A DNA stretch of 49,951 nt from Candidatus Woesearchaeota archaeon. GTDB taxonomy: Archaea > Nanobdellota > Nanobdellia > Woesearchaeales > SKGA01. The stretch lies in assembly GCA_007117735.1 (NCBI GenBank), contig SKGA01000028.1, positions 1-49,951 of the forward strand. The letters run 5' to 3'. Made by a program: the position numbers and the translations under genes. A model generated the notes under the pieces. It did no database searches and had not been told where the DNA came from. It saw nothing but the letters and a program-made list of their open reading frames with translations. Within the stretch, counting starts at the first letter, position 1. Each line of letters begins with the position of its first letter. Of the stretch, positions 38,009 through 42,788 are shown piece after piece.

Positions 38009-38505
38009 GATGATTGCACCAAGGTAGTTCTTGCTTGTCCTCGCAGAGTCACATCAAAAGTTCCTGCTCGCGCAGGTATACAAAGCGGTTGTGAAGGATC
38101 ATCTAAACGCAAAGTATGAGCATAACCTAACTCTACCATAATATTATCTCTATCAAAAGTAAAAATATTCGCTTGAACTCCTTGTTCTACACTTGATTGC
38201 ATTAACCAGTACGAACCACCTGTTTGTGCTTGTCGATAAGAAACTTCTCCAGAAATTGCTCGAGGATCGATAAAACAAAGTTCTCGTTGATGACATGCTG
38301 ATGCAAAACGTTGTTGTCTAACCGAACCAAAGTCATTACTTGTCCGTATAGTATCAAGAATAGTGCTTCTTTGAATTAAATATTCACTCATACACTTATC
38401 ATCAAATAAACCCGATCCAAATCGTGCAGCAACAAGAACCAGGACTCCTATAACTAATAAAGTCATAATCATAGTAAACATGTTGCTCATTTGTGCTCGT
38501 TTCAT
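38005..38505 (-). CDS. Class III signal (prepilin-like) protein, MKRAQ family
   Basis: MKRAQ MSNMFTMIMTLLVIGVLVLVAA. ATGA overlap with the giant gene upstream. Confidence 0.65.
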   Translation of the reverse strand: MKRAQMSNMFTMIMTLLVIGVLVLVAARFGSGLFDDKCMSEYLIQRSTILDTIRTSNDFGSVRQQRFASACHQRELCFIDPRAISGEVSYRQAQTGGSYWLMQSSVEQGVQANIFTFDRDNIMVELGYAHTLRLDDPSQPLCIPARAGTFDVTLRGQARTTLVQSS

Positions 38506-41500: not shown

Positions 41501-42788
41501 GTGCTCCTAAACCTGTTGCTTGACAAACAACATCTACAGTATAATCTCCATCCTCTAAATTAGAAAGAGAAAGTTGATGAGACTCTGAAGGTTGCGAACT
41601 AAGAGTTGATGTTTCTCCTTGGAATGTCGCATCACACGTACTAAAAAGACTTGTTGAAAAATTAAGTTCTGGGTTTCGTTGTGCAAAATAATTTCGTTGT
41701 AAATCTATAGAAAATGTTCGGGAAAGTTCTACACTGTACGTTTCAACTATTGTTGATGATGAAAGTGCAGGGTTCTGACAAACTAATCGAAGATCAAAAT
41801 CTGTTCGAGTATTAAGGTTGAAAAGTTTTCCTGGAAAACCAAATTGTTTTTGATAAGAAAAAGGGTAATCTCGAAGACTGGTAATGTCTGAAGGTTCTAA
41901 AAATCTTCCTGAGACATCATCTTGTTCTGGTGAAGGGTTTGAAACGTGATCGTAAGTACAATAAATAAGATCATCACTTTCAACAGAGAGTTGTGTTCGA
42001 ATAGAAAATTCATCTTGAATGAGTTGTGGTGTAAAATTAGCAGTTAATCGAGGACTACTCGTATCATATCCAAAATAAAAGCTTTCTAAAAAATAAAAAT
42101 GTTGTCCTTGATTATTTGTTTGTTGACAAACAACAATATATCGATTAGCATCAAGATTATCATATCGAAATGTTGAAGTAACAGGTAACTCATATTGATT
42201 AGGATTAGAAGTTTGCGTGACATTAATACTGTGTTGTCGAGTAATAAGATTTGGATCGTTGTTAAAATAACTAAATCCTCCTTCATTAAAAATGTCTTCT
42301 GCAGTTCCTGATAACGGAGGAATATAACGTTTTACTCGGCACGTTGCAGGCAAGAGAGTTGAAAGTTCTACGCGAAATGGCGAACTTGTTCCTATTGCAA
42401 AATCTTGTGCTTCTCGAGTAAGATAGGGTACTTGCGGATGTGAGACCCAGATAAATCGTTCTGGTTCTTCAATACTAAATGATCGTTCAATTCTTTGCTG
42501 ATTTTGATCACTATCAGTAGCATCAAGAACAAGAATATAATCTCCAGGTAATAAAAAACTCTGAATTGCTACGTCAAACTCATAACCGTTTTGTGATGTT
42601 GGTTGGAGTGGTAATTGAAAACCAGAATCATAAAGAAGATAAGAATTCTGGATAGTGACGGGTGCATCTGCTGGACCGTATTCTATCCGTAAGGTAGGTG
42701 TCGGATTTGATGTTGATAATGCAGAAATACTTGGGAGAGTTAAAAGTAGTAAAAAGGCCAATACCAGATAATAATATCTAACATGCAA
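38502..42788 (-). CDS. Giant type I membrane surface protein (1428 aa): signal peptide, multiple beta-sandwich repeats, paired EEGVDCGGPC modules, TM, about 200-aa cytoplasmic coiled-coil tail
   Basis: Signal LVLAFLLLLTLPSISALS. D-x-[AG]-[GN]-type strand-end motifs recur (VTNRAGLRS, VYDKAGNLV, VYDQANNSE). CFNGIEDPEEEGVDCGGPCLAQC and CDNGVQDPFEEGVDCGGPCPTSC lie at nt about 39340-39500. TM LLGIILVLVGLLLVAGGVFY at nt about 39118-39180. The tail is Q/E/K-rich. Confidence 0.8.
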   Translation of the reverse strand: MHVRYYYLVLAFLLLLTLPSISALSTSNPTPTLRIEYGPADAPVTIQNSYLLYDSGFQLPLQPTSQNGYEFDVAIQSFLLPGDYILVLDATDSDQNQQRIERSFSIEEPERFIWVSHPQVPYLTREAQDFAIGTSSPFRVELSTLLPATCRVKRYIPPLSGTAEDIFNEGGFSYFNNDPNLITRQHSINVTQTSNPNQYELPVTSTFRYDNLDANRYIVVCQQTNNQGQHFYFLESFYFGYDTSSPRLTANFTPQLIQDEFSIRTQLSVESDDLIYCTYDHVSNPSPEQDDVSGRFLEPSDITSLRDYPFSYQKQFGFPGKLFNLNTRTDFDLRLVCQNPALSSSTIVETYSVELSRTFSIDLQRNYFAQRNPELNFSTSLFSTCDATFQGETSTLSSQPSESHQLSLSNLEDGDYTVDVVCQATGLGAQQSQSFIFTVDSTPPVAPTLDAPSLTCGSDILPLTIFSPNATVQYNISLEFNNTIFSSELTPNQPTSQEITYSQSVPLEAVQGDSVTWIVRAINPADLESQESRLSIEISDFDPIRCDTIPPRHSVEVEESMQGFDVTVTCTDEQSGCEDFFSYGIVPFDATCPETVSIREPVNQTFTLIEEGKFCYEVTNRAGLRSRGELLLTSTPPSSSLDITLLSPRFGIGKTHSFVLAVETSLEASCVHGPASSQDPQTLFSSYEPFTSTGQQSHQHMIDTALHGFSSGETESQDWLVLCQDESGGIDSLSFELGYDLTPPVLTVQATPNPIINPRDISTTLQVTTSDPTVCIYLDNEGIPQGFGNYDPSIRSRYQTTHQVELSYFAPQESFAQRIVCLNVAQHVQDAFYSIDFSFQNELDITLLTPTISSSSPYTLRVSTNQDASCFYRQRTDMSLRSFSQSGSTRHEQTLRLLDGTHDIEIICETSSVTSYKPVSILIDTVAPKISLYSQAASCTAGDVVFLAAADGTGSRIAQRLYTLFSEGGEILSQGSFDGLTHTIIGDFDIEPYRLEVQVYDQANNSERRSIVLDDLCDTTPPQATYQATPRWKAYDITITCQDNIACAPDFLYSFTCDVDDAILQSYRPISIKETTDFCYYVYDKAGNLVTGERFIDMPLQCFNGIEDPEEEGVDCGGPCLAQCGLCDNGVQDPFEEGVDCGGPCPTSCTDFEPDFQPSEPDFEPSESDACFSNSDCPIGLRCIDGTCQESTPPPIIEESSPSLLGIILVLVGLLLVAGGVFYIRYSLEQKEIQQSYQQQQQLAQQQTVNQQKEVEQRSKRLEELKKKQAEQSKLRKERLGQRKAERKSLLDQFQKEPVVEEEPQQSVLEEEQDPIAPFAALEKLNTEESFKVPKDHLLTPEHHHEEPVVEEEPQQPASVFDELDTINISQALRTQLEEAKDLSGMVHELYLEKKYSLEQLQSALLALVSKGKISRIEADSIIKNLEQ
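38721..38750. repeat. 30-nt direct repeat copy A (within the tail of the 1428-aa gene)
   Basis: TTGTTGAGGTTCTTCTTCTACAACAGGTTC is identical at 38721-38750 and 38871-38900, exactly 150 nt apart. On the coding strand it encodes EPVVEEEPQQ twice. Confidence 0.9.
38871..38900. repeat. 30-nt direct repeat copy B
   Basis: Identical to 38721-38750. Confidence 0.9.

What the first reader, a model, noticed from the sequence alone, without database searches (positions are those of the whole stretch)
38502..42788. 1428-aa giant adhesin-like protein is a type I membrane protein with a 200-aa cytoplasmic coiled-coil tail and duplicated EEGVDCGGPC modules
Seen:
- A cleavable-looking signal is followed by about 1150 aa of repeated beta-sandwich-like segments. 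Their strand ends are of the D-x-A-G-N type seen in HYR/Big-like domains.
- Two adjacent Cys modules follow: C-x-NG-x-(E/Q)DP-x-EEGVDCGGPC-x3-C.
- Next come the acidic repeats PDFQPSEPDFEPSE and a small Cys knot (CFSNSDCPIGLRCIDGTC).
- A single TM follows, then a Q/E/K-rich tail. The tail contains a perfect 30-nt direct repeat 150 nt apart (38721-38750 and 38871-38900), which encodes EPVVEEEPQQ twice.

Inference: a long cytoplasmic coiled coil on a giant ectodomain suggests coupling of the surface structure to an intracellular partner for anchoring, signalling or assembly. That would be unusual for an archaeal surface protein. The gene is translationally coupled (ATGA) to the first MKRAQ pilin-like gene.
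Basis: partly seen in the sequence, partly recalled or inferred. Interest (0 to 1): 0.7.

Follow-up and report, generated by a model that had tools for sequence, protein, structure and literature searches.

The report
DPANN surface protein with conserved cytoplasmic tail
This gene encodes a 1428-residue single-pass surface protein of a tiny symbiotic (DPANN) archaeon; its roughly 200-residue inside-the-cell tail is conserved across a large, unannotated protein family that sits in a conserved pilus-like gene cluster, so it is a good candidate for linking the cell's outer contact machinery to its interior.

Summary
ORF 38502-42788 (-) encodes a 1428-aa protein with these parts:
- a signal peptide;
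- about 11 disulfide-bearing Ig-like beta-sandwich domains;
- two 23-aa 'GVDCGG' Cys modules, acidic repeats and a Cys knot;
- one TM helix and a 203-aa tail carrying the exact 30-nt repeat.

The tail is not a fortuitous extension. An exhaustive HMMER search found 998 cluster representatives. Of the 150 best, 124 have the same signal/ectodomain/TM/tail layout. Cys makes up 4.4% of ectodomain residues, but only 1 of 26,853 tail residues.

The tail is not a 200-aa coiled coil. It consists of:
- a helix of about 70 aa, rich in charged and Gln residues, continuous with the TM and without heptad signal, ending in an invariant RKSLLxxF motif;
- a disordered acidic linker of about 60 aa that holds the repeat and FxxLxxL motifs;
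- a four-helix C-terminal domain of about 70 aa with no Pfam or PDB relative.

Orthologues lie in Woesearchaeota/Nanoarchaeota MAGs in a fixed gene order: giant secreted proteins, a Memo-like gene, this protein, then five proteins with class-III (pilin-type) signals.

My best reading is a membrane-anchored adhesin or scaffold of a DPANN type-IV-filament-like surface apparatus, whose tail docks a cytoplasmic partner. That function is inferred, not shown.

The parts
42717..42788 (-). TTG start and N-terminal signal peptide (aa 1-24; MHVRYYYLVLAFLLLLTLPSISA|LS)
   Evidence: Hydropathy peak at aa 6-26. GAGGT box upstream. Orthologues share the 'A|(L/I)(D/S)xT(S/D)(D/N)P(T/S)P' junction. The cleavage site is inferred; no SignalP was available.
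39486..42716 (-). Ectodomain of about 11 tandem Ig-like beta-sandwich domains (aa 25-1101), each with a conserved Cys pair; 8 N-x-S/T sequons
   Evidence: Internal repeats. All ectodomain Cys are invariant in 15 homologues. AF2 pLDDT >90 for aa 842-1102. Foldseek hits to GhpA 4.9e-8, SiiE 8e-7, contactin and NCAM2. 36 Cys and 8 sequons. Weak Big_13/Y_Y_Y Pfam hits below cut-off.
39342..39485 (-). Two tandem 23-aa 'GVDCGG' Cys modules (aa 1102-1124 and 1127-1149; C-x13-C-x3-C-x3-C)
   Evidence: Sequence. DNA repeat D3, 80% identity, 75-nt spacing. Invariant C/D/E/G columns. The same module occurs in up to 32 tandem copies in unrelated bacterial proteins. No Pfam or NCBIfam model. AF2 confidence is low here.
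39285..39338 (-). Acidic proline-rich repeats DFEPDFQPSEPDFEPSES (aa 1151-1168), a variable spacer
   Evidence: Sequence. DNA repeats D5/D11. Length and sequence are not conserved in homologues. AF2 pLDDT <50.
39225..39278 (-). Small Cys knot CFSNSDCPIGLRCIDGTC (aa 1171-1188)
   Evidence: C1171, D1176, C1177 and C1188 invariant, C1183 nearly so. Sub-threshold matches to Dumpy DPY (E 0.0067) and Myxo_Cys_RPT TIGR04201 (E 0.012). AF2 pLDDT about 75-78 with two short strands.
39111..39179 (-). Single transmembrane helix (aa 1204-1226; LLGIILVLVGLLLVAGGVFYIRY)
   Evidence: Hydropathy maximum 2.92. L1209, G1213 and G1220 invariant. AF2 helix with pLDDT >90. 0 K/R in the 15 aa before it and 2 after it.
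38904..39110 (-). Juxtamembrane helix rich in Gln and charged residues (aa 1227-1295), continuous with the TM, ending in ERKSLLDQF (R1287, F1294 invariant)
   Evidence: AF2 gives a single helix aa 1204-1295, pLDDT 91-96. A degenerate RKSLLxxF regex matches 99 of 150 homologues. In the target this segment is 28% Q, 14% K, 13% E, 9% R; family-wide it is K 16.5, E 14, Q 11, R 11%. No heptad signal; i/i+4 opposite-charge pairs 8 versus 4.4+-1.7 in shuffles.
38715..38903 (-). Disordered acidic linker (aa 1296-1358) with the duplicated unit EPVVEEEPQQ...(P)xxFxxLxxL. The exact 30-nt repeats are at 38871-38900 and 38721-38750; the FxxLxxL-type motifs are PFAALEKL and, at the linker/C-terminal-domain boundary, VFDELDTI
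   Evidence: Repeat family D1. AF2 pLDDT 37-42. The linker is variable in length and sequence in homologues, but FxxLxxL motifs recur in 83 of 124 tails.
38505..38714 (-). C-terminal helical domain of about 70 aa (aa 1359-1428; four helices; two tandem 'LxxLLxxLxxxGK(I/L)xxxxxxxIxxxL' units)
   Evidence: AF2 helices 1360-1379, 1383-1392, 1398-1410 and 1416-1427, block-mean pLDDT 64-88, rising towards the C-terminus. A local HMM finds it in 61 of 151 proteins, always at the extreme C-terminus. Within the held loci it occurs only in orthologues of this gene. No significant Pfam, PDB-sequence or Foldseek match.
38502..38505 (-). ATGA stop/start overlap with the first class-III-signal (pilin-like) gene 38005-38505
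   Evidence: The same 4-nt overlap occurs in L006 and L008, and a 1-nt overlap in L007.
35617..38505 (-). Five downstream genes with class-III (prepilin-type) signal-like N-termini: MKRAQ|M.., MSKAQ|I.., MKRAQ|I.., MKRAQ|I.., and the small 88-aa ..KKAE|LSMNIIIMAIIGL
   Evidence: Same order and sizes in L004-L008, L025 and L026. No Pfam or NCBIfam hit. Pilin nature is inferred from the N-terminal motif only.
42804..49951 (-). Two upstream giant genes of the same operon: a 1398-aa Cys-rich secreted protein (42804-47000), and a protein of about 1125 aa with a class III signal that is cut by the contig end (47078-49951)
   Evidence: The full-length version with VNRKGQ|LTLLVIAG is in L025.

Best explanation
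The gene encodes a type I (N-out, C-in) single-pass surface protein, probably a glycoprotein. It belongs to a large, so far unannotated family that, wherever an organism name was available, is found in DPANN archaea (Woesearchaeota / Nanoarchaeota / 'Nanobdellota' MAGs).

**Shown**
- Architecture, in order: signal peptide; about 11 disulfide-bearing Ig-like domains; a membrane-proximal stalk of Cys mini-modules; one TM helix; a conserved tail.
- The tail has three parts:
  - a helix of about 70 aa, rich in charged and Gln residues, that prolongs the TM helix and ends in the invariant RKSLLxxF motif;
  - a variable disordered acidic/lysine-rich linker with short FxxLxxL-type motifs (in this gene recently duplicated, hence the 30-nt repeat);
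  - a four-helix C-terminal domain of about 70 aa.
- The gene occupies a fixed position in a co-directional, tightly packed locus of about 25 kb. The order is: giant secreted proteins, a Memo-like gene, this gene, then five genes with class III (prepilin-type) signal peptides, then further N-terminally anchored proteins.

**Inferred mechanism**
- The ectodomain forms a long (tens of nm) rod that acts as adhesin and/or extracellular scaffold of a type-IV-filament-like surface or host-contact apparatus.
- The TM-plus-helix unit projects about 10 nm into the cytoplasm.
- The flexible linker motifs and the C-terminal domain dock a cytoplasmic partner or mediate self-clustering. This would anchor or position the external structure, or report its engagement to the cell interior.
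For: **The family is real and large**
- 998 representatives at E<=1e-3, 313 at <=1e-10, 61 at <=1e-30.

**Architecture is conserved**
- 124 of the 150 best hits have a single C-terminal TM with a 79-373 aa tail, median 224.

**Topology**
- Cys 4.4/100 aa outside versus 1 Cys in 26,853 tail residues.
- Sequons 1.59 versus 0.51 per 100 aa.
- K+R 2.4 after the TM versus 1.2 before it.

**Tail conservation**
- R1287 and F1294 are invariant across 15 homologues at 24-35% identity.
- The C-terminal domain HMM hits 61 of 151 proteins, always terminal.

**Structure**
- AF2 tail model and ectodomain model.
- Foldseek to the giant adhesins GhpA and SiiE and to Ig-type cell-adhesion molecules, E 5e-8 to 1e-5.

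**Synteny**
- Same gene order in L004-L008, L025 and L026/27.
- Operon-like spacing; 9 of 17 junctions overlap.

**Literature**
- Large Ig-fold adhesin-like proteins recur in archaeal type-4-filament loci (bioRxiv 10.64898/2026.04.22.720090).
- Pili-like appendages link ultrasmall cells, likely CPR or DPANN, to hosts (PMC7906910).
Against: - There are no experimental data, and no binding partner was identified.
- The neighbours are called pilins on N-terminal motifs alone; there are no Pfam or NCBIfam hits.
- No type-4-filament ATPase, platform protein or prepilin peptidase was seen among the cluster genes scanned or within +-10 kb in related loci. ORFs in window 1-20 kb were not scanned against Pfam.
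- The C-terminal domain has no detectable relative, so 'docking domain' is a guess.
- About 60% of the top-150 homologues lack that domain and end instead in an FxxLxxL motif plus a lysine-rich stretch. The tail's function may therefore reside mostly in the helix and the short motifs.
- Taxonomy of the window itself rests on homologous MAG loci. Some are labelled 'uncultured Methanosarcinales' by their depositors.
Confidence: 0.6

Rival explanations
1. It is the S-layer, or an S-layer-anchoring (SlaB-like) envelope protein, of these archaea. The Ig-like rod builds or tethers the surface lattice, the TM anchors it, and the tail only organises lattice spacing or membrane retention. Linkage to the pilin-like genes would then reflect local remodelling of the S-layer so that a filament can pass.
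For: - Ig-like, Cys- and sequon-bearing ectodomain with a C-terminal TM.
- A Foldseek hit to the Deinococcus HPI S-layer at 6.9e-6 among the matches.
- DPANN S-layer candidates and SlaB-like anchors have the same gross layout (bioRxiv 10.1101/2023.10.27.564410).
- S-layer-like Ig proteins in archaellum loci have been proposed to prime the S-layer (bioRxiv 10.64898/2026.04.22.720090).
Against: - From my own knowledge, known S-layer anchors have essentially no cytoplasmic tail. Here a 79-373 aa tail with invariant residues and a folded domain is conserved.
- The gene sits mid-operon, translationally coupled to pilin-like genes, rather than standing alone as a highly expressed gene.
- No expression data are available.
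Confidence: 0.2
2. It is a transmembrane receptor. Ligand or host binding by the ectodomain is transmitted through the rigid TM-plus-helix unit to tail motifs, which recruit the only cytoplasmic protein encoded in the cluster, the Memo-like protein. This would resemble eukaryotic Memo1 binding the ErbB2 receptor tail.
For: - A Memo gene (PF01875, E 2e-33) is embedded between the giant secreted-protein genes, on the same strand with short gaps. This holds in every related locus examined: L004-L008, L025 and L026/27, spanning 26-100% identity of the target protein.
- Many tails carry a conserved LDEGxxxE(Y/F)(V/I)D(L/V) motif: 53 of 124.
- That eukaryotic Memo1 binds a phosphotyrosine peptide of the ErbB2 tail is from my own knowledge, not tested here.
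Against: - The target itself lacks the EYVDL motif.
- From my own knowledge, Memo homologues are widespread archaeal genes usually tied to the AMMECR1/radical-SAM triad, so the adjacency may be inherited synteny.
- No interaction evidence of any kind, and no kinase in the cluster.
Confidence: 0.08
3. The tail has no specific partner. It is a stop-transfer anchor plus a hydrophilic, low-complexity spacer that keeps the protein in the membrane, and its conservation reflects composition only.
For: - The linker is low-complexity, variable in length and prone to duplication: the 30-nt repeat and variable linkers.
- No Pfam, PDB or Foldseek relative for any tail part.
Against: - Position-specific conservation: R1287 and F1294 are invariant at 24-35% identity. 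The regex-defined core of the motif (hydrophobic, hydrophobic, x, x, F) recurs in 99 of 150.
- The C-terminal domain is alignable across the family, with HMM E-values down to 1e-26, and is always terminal.
- AF2 predicts it as folded, with block-mean pLDDT rising from 64 to 88.
Confidence: 0.08
4. The topology is the reverse or different: the C-terminal region is extracellular, or the 'TM' is not membrane-spanning.
For: None found. No dedicated topology predictor could be run.
Against: - An N-terminal signal plus exactly one further hydrophobic segment.
- Cys and sequons are confined to the N-terminal side, and the tail is essentially Cys-free family-wide.
- Positive-inside bias.
- The TM is predicted as a helix with pLDDT >90.
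Confidence: 0.03

Closest known systems
Large Ig-fold 'adhesin-like' or S-layer-like proteins encoded in archaeal type-4-filament (TFF) loci (e.g. arCOG05616, arCOG07037, arCOG05057; bioRxiv 10.64898/2026.04.22.720090)
   Same: A giant protein built of tandem Ig-like folds, encoded next to genes with class III signal peptides. Its structure resembles the Aureispira grappling-hook protein GhpA, which was also my best Foldseek hit.
   Different: - Those proteins are described by their ectodomains only; a conserved cytoplasmic tail is not part of their description.
- Homology to those arCOGs was not tested.
- No TFF ATPase or platform gene was found beside this cluster.
Archaeal S-layer anchors and DPANN Ig-like glycoproteins with a C-terminal TM (SlaB; Nanobdella aerobiophila MJ1_0299/0309/0707; bioRxiv 10.1101/2023.10.27.564410)
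   Same: Signal peptide, Ig-like sequon-bearing ectodomain, single C-terminal TM helix, DPANN host organism.
   Different: - Those have 4-5 Ig folds and no described intracellular domain.
- Here there are about 11 domains, Cys mini-modules and a conserved 200-aa tail with a folded C-terminal domain.
- No sequence comparison was possible.
Giant bacterial adhesins with Ig-like extender arrays (SiiE, MpIBP/LapA-type RTX adhesins, GhpA)
   Same: Tandem beta-sandwich rod; Foldseek E 5e-8 to 1e-5.
   Different: - From my own knowledge, those are secreted by T1SS or T9SS and retained non-covalently or in the outer membrane.
- They are Ca2+-stabilised rather than disulfide-stabilised.
- They have no TM helix plus cytoplasmic tail.
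Eukaryotic type I cell-adhesion and immune receptors (IgCAMs such as contactin, NCAM and L1; butyrophilins)
   Same: - Signal peptide, Ig/FN3 array, single TM, and a juxtamembrane helix followed by motifs or a domain in the cytoplasm.
- Foldseek hits to contactin-2, NCAM2 and IgLONs.
- A non-significant profile hit of the TM plus juxtamembrane helix to BTN3A1 (E 0.14).
   Different: This is an analogy of design only. There is no detectable homology of the tail, the organism is archaeal, and the cytoskeletal or signalling partners are unknown.
SHOCT / SHOCT-like short C-terminal domains (PF22746 and relatives)
   Same: Position at the extreme C-terminus of membrane proteins, and a helix-turn-helix unit with a 'G-x-(I/L)-(T/S)-x-x-(E/Q)' turn.
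   Different: - Matches are far below threshold: E 0.47 for the target, and 2 of 10 homologues at E about 0.035.
- Here two such units are preceded by two more helices.
Myxococcus Cys-rich repeat (TIGR04201) / Dumpy DPY module
   Same: The small knot C-x5-C-x5-C-x4-C resembles these, with E 0.012 and 0.0067.
   Different: Both matches are below the curated cut-offs. The GVDCGG module itself matches no curated model.

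Membership tests
Type I single-pass membrane protein (N-out/C-in) | Cleavable N-terminal signal plus exactly one further TM segment | tested here: met
   Hydropathy shows only aa 6-26 and 1203-1225 above threshold. 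The same pattern holds in 124 of 150 homologues. Signal cleavage itself is inferred.
Type I single-pass membrane protein (N-out/C-in) | Extracytoplasmic features on the N-terminal side, cytoplasmic features on the C-terminal side | tested here: met
   Family-wide: Cys 4.4 versus 0.004 per 100 aa; sequons 1.59 versus 0.51; K+R after the TM 2.4 versus 1.2 before. Target: 36 Cys and 8 sequons outside, 0 Cys inside. TMHMM/DeepTMHMM were not available.
   The best 28-residue heptad score in aa 1227-1295 is matched or exceeded by 81% of shuffles. Family-averaged hydrophobic periodicity peaks at 3.6 residues with occupancy of only 0.3-0.4. Only about 70 of 203 tail residues form the long helix. COILS and Marcoil were not available.
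Bacterial/archaeal Ig-like adhesin repeats (Big_13 PF19077, Y_Y_Y PF07495) | Score above the Pfam gathering threshold | tested here: not met
   Big_13 17.0 bits against 27; Y_Y_Y 18.1 against 26.6. Homologues P0010 and P0152 carry precomputed PF19077 hits; the P0010 hit is marked faint.
Bacterial/archaeal Ig-like adhesin repeats (Big_13 PF19077, Y_Y_Y PF07495) | Tandem beta-sandwich fold | tested here: met
   AF2 gives three sandwiches with pLDDT >90. 170 PDB matches at E<=1e-3, all Ig/FN3-type arrays.
Archaeal type IV pilin (class III signal peptide) | N-terminal [KR][GA]|[QLIF..] cleavage motif directly followed by a hydrophobic helix | tested here: not met
   The target N-terminus MHVRYYYLVLAF...SISA|LS is a type I signal. 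The motif is present in the five downstream genes and in the giant gene two positions upstream (47078-49951; full-length form in L025).
PGF-CTERM / archaeosortase-type C-terminal sorting signals | PGF-like motif plus a TM plus a short basic tail at the extreme C-terminus | tested here: not met
   The sequence shows no PGF motif before the TM, and 203 residues follow it. No NCBIfam hit.
SHOCT / SHOCT-like domain | Significant match to the Pfam model | tested here: not met
   E 0.47, 10.6 bits against 27. 2 of 10 homologous tails at E>=0.035.
S-layer anchor (SlaB-like) | Extracellular coiled-coil stalk before the TM; negligible cytoplasmic tail | tested here: not met
   The region before the TM consists of Cys modules, acidic repeats and a knot, not a helix. 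The tail is 203 aa. The features of SlaB are taken from my own knowledge and bioRxiv 10.1101/2023.10.27.564410. Sequence homology was not tested.
New family defined here (DPANN tail-bearing Ig-rod proteins) | Invariant juxtamembrane RKSLLxxF motif 60-75 residues after the TM | tested here: met
   ERKSLLDQF at aa 1286-1294. R1287 and F1294 are invariant in A1. The degenerate regex matches 99 of 150 homologues.
New family defined here (DPANN tail-bearing Ig-rod proteins) | Position between a Cys-rich giant secreted protein gene and the first of four medium-sized class-III-signal genes | tested here: met
   Window; L004-L008; L025; L026/27.

The most novel reading that the evidence does not exclude
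This family is the transmembrane coupling element of a DPANN-specific host-contact apparatus. A rod of about 40 nm is built beside a type-IV-filament-like structure. Its rigid TM-plus-helix unit, short linear motifs (RKSLLxxF, FxxLxxL, EYVDL) and C-terminal domain recruit cytoplasmic factors. One candidate is the Memo-like protein encoded inside the same cluster. This would be a prokaryotic analogue of eukaryotic adhesion-receptor tails, and a previously undescribed class of archaeal 'outside-in' linkage.
Probability: 0.2. Interest if true: 0.85.

Novelty: new variant of a known kind. Interest (0 to 1): 0.6.

Why it matters
How DPANN archaea recognise, hold and tap their hosts is an open question. 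Imaging shows filaments and contact structures, but the genes behind them are largely unknown.

This analysis defines three things:
- A large unannotated protein family: about 1000 clusters at 50% identity, with no Pfam or NCBIfam model.
- A conserved locus of about 25 kb around it in Woesearchaeota/Nanoarchaeota genomes.
- Precise, testable elements in the protein: an invariant juxtamembrane motif, short linear motifs and a new C-terminal domain. All are confined to the cytoplasmic side of a surface protein, which is a layout rarely documented in prokaryotes.

The work also flags two further items:
- A widespread, uncurated 25-residue Cys module (GVDCGG), shared with bacterial secreted proteins.
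- Candidate cluster partners for experiments: the Memo-like protein and a VanY-type peptidase fused to a pilin-like protein.

If the tail really docks a cytoplasmic partner, it offers a handle for pull-downs, AlphaFold-Multimer screens and cryo-ET labelling in cultivable relatives.

Tried and rejected
1. **The search for homologous proteins.** The full-length query returned only itself. The ectodomain returned 3 hits. A 19-sequence profile returned 10 mostly module-only hits. The word index is swamped or too insensitive for this family, so the family picture rests on the exhaustive HMMER search.
A 6-sequence alignment worked.
3. **Pfam and NCBIfam** on the whole protein, the tail, the C-terminal domain, the Cys region, ten homologous tails and module-rich bacterial proteins gave nothing above threshold.
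4. **PDB sequence searches** with the protein and with tail and ectodomain profiles gave nothing significant. The best hits were AcrIF14 at E 0.012 and BTN3A1 at E 0.14, which I regard as chance.
5. **Foldseek of the tail model** gave a best E of 0.56, with only generic helical-repeat or TPR-like matches. I rejected these as uninformative.
6. **SHOCT idea** for the C-terminal units was not supported statistically.
7. **The 190-aa protein at 24425-24997** seemed to share the C-terminal domain. The HMM does not hit it, so I rejected the idea.
8. **Literature searches** for the GVDCGG motif found only unrelated peptides. Searches for a description of this cluster or family found only general statements.
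9. **Exact-sequence look-ups** gave no source names, so there is no direct taxonomic label for the window.
10. **Self-BLAST of the whole protein** shows only the identity hit. A fragment-versus-fragment comparison was needed.

Full report
**1. What is in the sequence**

The minus-strand ORF 38502-42788 (TTG start, 1428 aa) is real. A GAGGT box lies 6 nt upstream of the start, and the upstream gene ends 15 nt before it. The window is archaeal, with an archaeal RNase P RNA at 19552-19861, and has about 35% GC.

Kyte-Doolittle scanning finds only two hydrophobic segments:
- aa 6-26, signal-like, ending ...PSISA|LS;
- aa 1203-1225.

- the two Cys modules, aa 1102-1124 and 1127-1149;
- the acidic DFEP/DFQP repeats;
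- the CFSNSDCPIGLRCIDGTC knot;
- the TM helix;
- a tail rich in Q, E and K;
- the exact 30-nt repeat at 38721-38750 and 38871-38900, encoding EPVVEEEPQQ twice;
- the ATGA overlap with the next gene.

**2. Ectodomain**

Fragment-versus-fragment BLAST shows internal duplication: aa 526-632 ~ 1001-1096, 207-279 ~ 709-777, and 639-672 ~ 841-872.

With a 19-sequence alignment, AlphaFold2 models aa 842-1102 as three beta-sandwiches (pLDDT >90). The Cys modules and acidic repeats are low-confidence, and the knot and TM are moderate to high.

Foldseek against the PDB returns 170 matches at E<=1e-3, all of them tandem Ig/FN3 arrays. They include the Aureispira grappling-hook protein GhpA (4.9e-8), Salmonella SiiE (8e-7), contactin-2, NCAM2, IgLONs, fibronectin and the ice-binding adhesin extender.

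Pfam and NCBIfam give nothing above threshold; Big_13 scores 17 bits against a cut-off of 27. The target ectodomain has 36 Cys and 8 N-x-S/T sequons. From the conserved Cys pairs and D-x-x-P linkers I count about 11 domains. That count is an inference.

**3. The family**

The word-indexed search failed. The exhaustive HMMER scan with aa 229-1428 found 998 cluster representatives at E<=1e-3, 313 at <=1e-10 and 61 at <=1e-30.

Several full-length homologues (P0005, P0008) align to the very last residue.

Of the 150 best hits, 124 have a single C-terminal TM followed by a 79-373 aa tail, median 224.

In a 15-sequence alignment at 24-35% identity, two things stand out:
- every ectodomain Cys is invariant;
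- in the tail, R1287 and F1294 are invariant.

**4. Topology**

Across the 124 proteins:

| Feature | Ectodomain side | Tail side |
|---|---|---|
| Residues | 135,906 | 26,853 |
| Cys | 4.4% | a single Cys |
| Sequons per 100 aa | 1.59 | 0.51 |
| K+R in the 15 aa flanking the TM | 1.2 (before) | 2.4 (after) |

Together with an N-terminal signal and one TM, this makes N-out/C-in the only sensible topology. A dedicated predictor could not be run.

**5. Anatomy of the tail**

AF2 with ten homologous tails gives three parts:
- A single helix at aa 1204-1295, covering the TM plus about 70 residues, with pLDDT 91-96.
- Disorder at aa 1298-1357, pLDDT about 40. Both EPVVEEEPQQ copies lie here.
- Four helices at aa 1360-1427, with block-mean pLDDT rising from 64 to 88.

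*The helix.* In the target it is dominated by Gln (28%), followed by K, E and R. Family-wide it is 16.5% K, 14% E, 11% Q and 11% R. It ends in a motif whose degenerate pattern (basic/polar x3, two hydrophobics, x, x, F) recurs in 99 of 150 homologues; the alignment consensus reads ERKSLLS.F.

A heptad test on the target gives no signal, because 81% of shuffles score at least as high. Opposite-charge i/i+4 pairs are enriched, at 8 against 4.4+-1.7. The family-averaged hydrophobic profile peaks at a period of 3.6 with low occupancy. So this is a polar, highly charged helix with at most a weak amphipathic stripe, not a canonical 200-aa coiled coil.

*The linker.* It varies in length and composition between homologues. 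It carries recurring short motifs: (D/S)xFxxLxx(L/I/M) in 83 of 124 tails, and LDEGxxxE(Y/F)(V/I)D(L/V) in 53 of 124. The target has two FxxLxxL-type copies (PFAALEKL, VFDELDTI) and no EYVDL motif. The 150-nt-spaced repeat is therefore a recent duplication of a linker unit, [EPVVEEEPQQ ... FxxLxxL].

*The C-terminal domain.* It is made of two tandem 'LxxLLxxLxxxGK(I/L)xxxxxxxIxxxL' units preceded by two helices. A local HMM finds it in 61 of the 151 proteins, always at the extreme C-terminus. Within all held loci it occurs only in orthologues of this gene. The remaining homologues end in an FxxLxxL motif followed by a lysine-rich stretch.

No Pfam, PDB-sequence or Foldseek relative was found. 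The resemblance to SHOCT domains is not statistically supported.

**6. Genomic context**

Eighteen co-directional genes from 49951 down to 24425 are packed with overlaps or short gaps.

Related loci from MAGs labelled Woesearchaeota, Nanoarchaeota and Nanobdellota share a fixed order. Some are labelled 'uncultured Methanosarcinales' by their depositors. The order is:
- a giant secreted protein;
- a Memo-like protein (PF01875, E 2e-33);
- a protein of about 1100-1270 aa with a class III signal;
- a Cys-rich secreted protein of about 1220-1400 aa;
- this protein;
- four proteins of about 160-190, 330-394, 162-176 and 165-189 aa with [KR][GA]Q-type class III signals;
- a small pilin-like protein of 81-127 aa;
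- further N-terminally anchored proteins.

A near-identical contig (L025; 5 differences in 4287 nt) shows that the window's last gene is cut by the contig end. Its full form starts VNRKGQ|LTLLVIAG.

None of the pilin-like genes matches Pfam or NCBIfam, so their nature rests on the N-terminal motif. No TFF ATPase or platform gene was seen in the cluster genes scanned or in the +-10 kb flanks of related loci.

**7. The Cys module**

The 23-25-aa unit C-x-NG-x-xD-x-xE-x-G-x-DCGG-x-C-x3-C is not covered by Pfam or NCBIfam. It nevertheless occurs in long tandem arrays in unrelated bacterial proteins. One example is P0025, with 32 copies plus DUF11 and a T9SS sorting domain. It is also found in Myxococcota and Chloroflexota loci. 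In this family it forms, together with one or more small knots, the membrane-proximal stalk.

**8. Interpretation**

*Shown:*
- a conserved type I architecture;
- a conserved cytoplasmic tail with position-specific invariants and a folded terminal domain;
- a fixed position in a conserved pilin-like cluster of DPANN archaea.

*Inferred:*
- The ectodomain is an adhesive or scaffolding rod of a surface or host-contact apparatus.
- The tail docks a cytoplasmic partner or clusters the protein.

*Rivals:*
- an S-layer or S-layer-anchor role;
- a receptor that recruits the cluster's Memo-like protein;
- a partner-less spacer;
- a different topology.

The 'coiled coil' description, and the claim that the overall layout is unusual, need correcting. 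Ig-like archaeal surface proteins with a C-terminal TM are common (bioRxiv 10.1101/2023.10.27.564410). Adhesin-like Ig proteins recur in archaeal TFF loci (bioRxiv 10.64898/2026.04.22.720090). What is new is the conserved intracellular part.

**9. Verdict**

This is a real feature. It is a new variant of a known kind: an Ig-rod surface or adhesin protein linked to a TFF-like locus, carrying a novel conserved cytoplasmic tail. It defines a large unannotated DPANN family.

- Interest: 0.6.
- Confidence in the architecture, topology and family statements: about 0.85-0.9.
- Confidence in the functional reading as adhesin or scaffold with cytoplasmic docking: about 0.4-0.5.
- The 0.6 given for the best explanation blends these two.

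Noticed in passing
window 24425-49951 (minus strand): Eighteen co-directional genes with overlapping or near-abutting ends (9 of 17 junctions overlap) form one operon-like cluster of about 25.5 kb. Nearly all products start with a signal peptide or an N-terminal TM/class-III-like segment. The order is conserved in Woesearchaeota/Nanoarchaeota MAG loci L004-L008, L025 and L026/27.
   Followed up: partly
L025 1431-2288; L026 1485-2348; L004 1147-2028; L005 1207-2088; L006 1011-1874; L007 1799-2665; L008 1879-2748 (just beyond the window's right end): A Memo-like gene (PF01875, E 2e-33) with no signal peptide is embedded between the giant secreted-protein genes in every related locus. It is the only evidently cytoplasmic product of the cluster. 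Whether it is a functional partner or mere synteny is unknown.
   Followed up: partly
window 24975-28640 (-): A 1221-aa protein with a class-III-like N-terminus (MKRLHKKGF|GMLFLAVV...) ends in a VanY-type D-Ala-D-Ala carboxypeptidase (LAS metallopeptidase) domain. This scores 25.8 bits against a cut-off of 25 when the last 250 aa are scanned alone. It may be a cell-wall-lytic activity attached to a pilin-like protein in a presumed host-contact cluster.
   Followed up: partly
window 35617-35883 (-): A small 88-aa gene missed at the 100-aa ORF cut-off. It has a class-III-like signal (..RKKAE|LSMNIIIMAIIGLIILAIV) followed by a Cys-rich C-terminus of about 45 aa (CTSFGGECKQSCGQGEF...CTDQDPGPLCCVP), with weak defensin-like Pfam hits (E 0.05-0.24). 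Conserved counterparts occur in all related loci; it is possibly the major filament subunit.
   Followed up: partly
window 39342-39485; also P0025, P0045, P0073, P0153; L017-L024: The 23-25-aa 'GVDCGG' Cys module has no Pfam or NCBIfam model. It nevertheless occurs in arrays of up to 32 copies in bacterial secreted proteins (Bacteroidota T9SS cargo, Myxococcota, Chloroflexota) as well as in DPANN proteins. It is an uncurated, widespread extracellular mini-domain.
   Followed up: partly
window 47078-49951 (-): The last gene is truncated by the contig end. The near-identical contig L025 shows the full 1125-aa protein with a class III signal (VNRKGQ|LTLLVIAGLGIL), i.e. a giant pilin-like protein.
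   Followed up: yes
window 42804-47000 (-): The upstream 1398-aa protein is very Cys-rich and has a sub-threshold CarboxypepD_reg-like domain (E 5e-5). It has no C-terminal TM and ends in a short conserved hydrophobic peptide (..EEPTIFFIP; ..RPIFTVI or ..RPTFTII in orthologues), whose role is unknown.
   Followed up: no
window 19552-19861 (+): Archaeal RNase P RNA (RF00373, 126.7 bits), the only Rfam hit. No tRNA genes were found in the whole 50-kb window.
   Followed up: no
L001-L003, L007, L012, L014 (record titles): Several MAG records that carry clear orthologues of this DPANN-type cluster are titled 'uncultured Methanosarcinales archaeon' (TPA assemblies). This is probably a placeholder or a mis-assigned taxonomy.
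   Followed up: no
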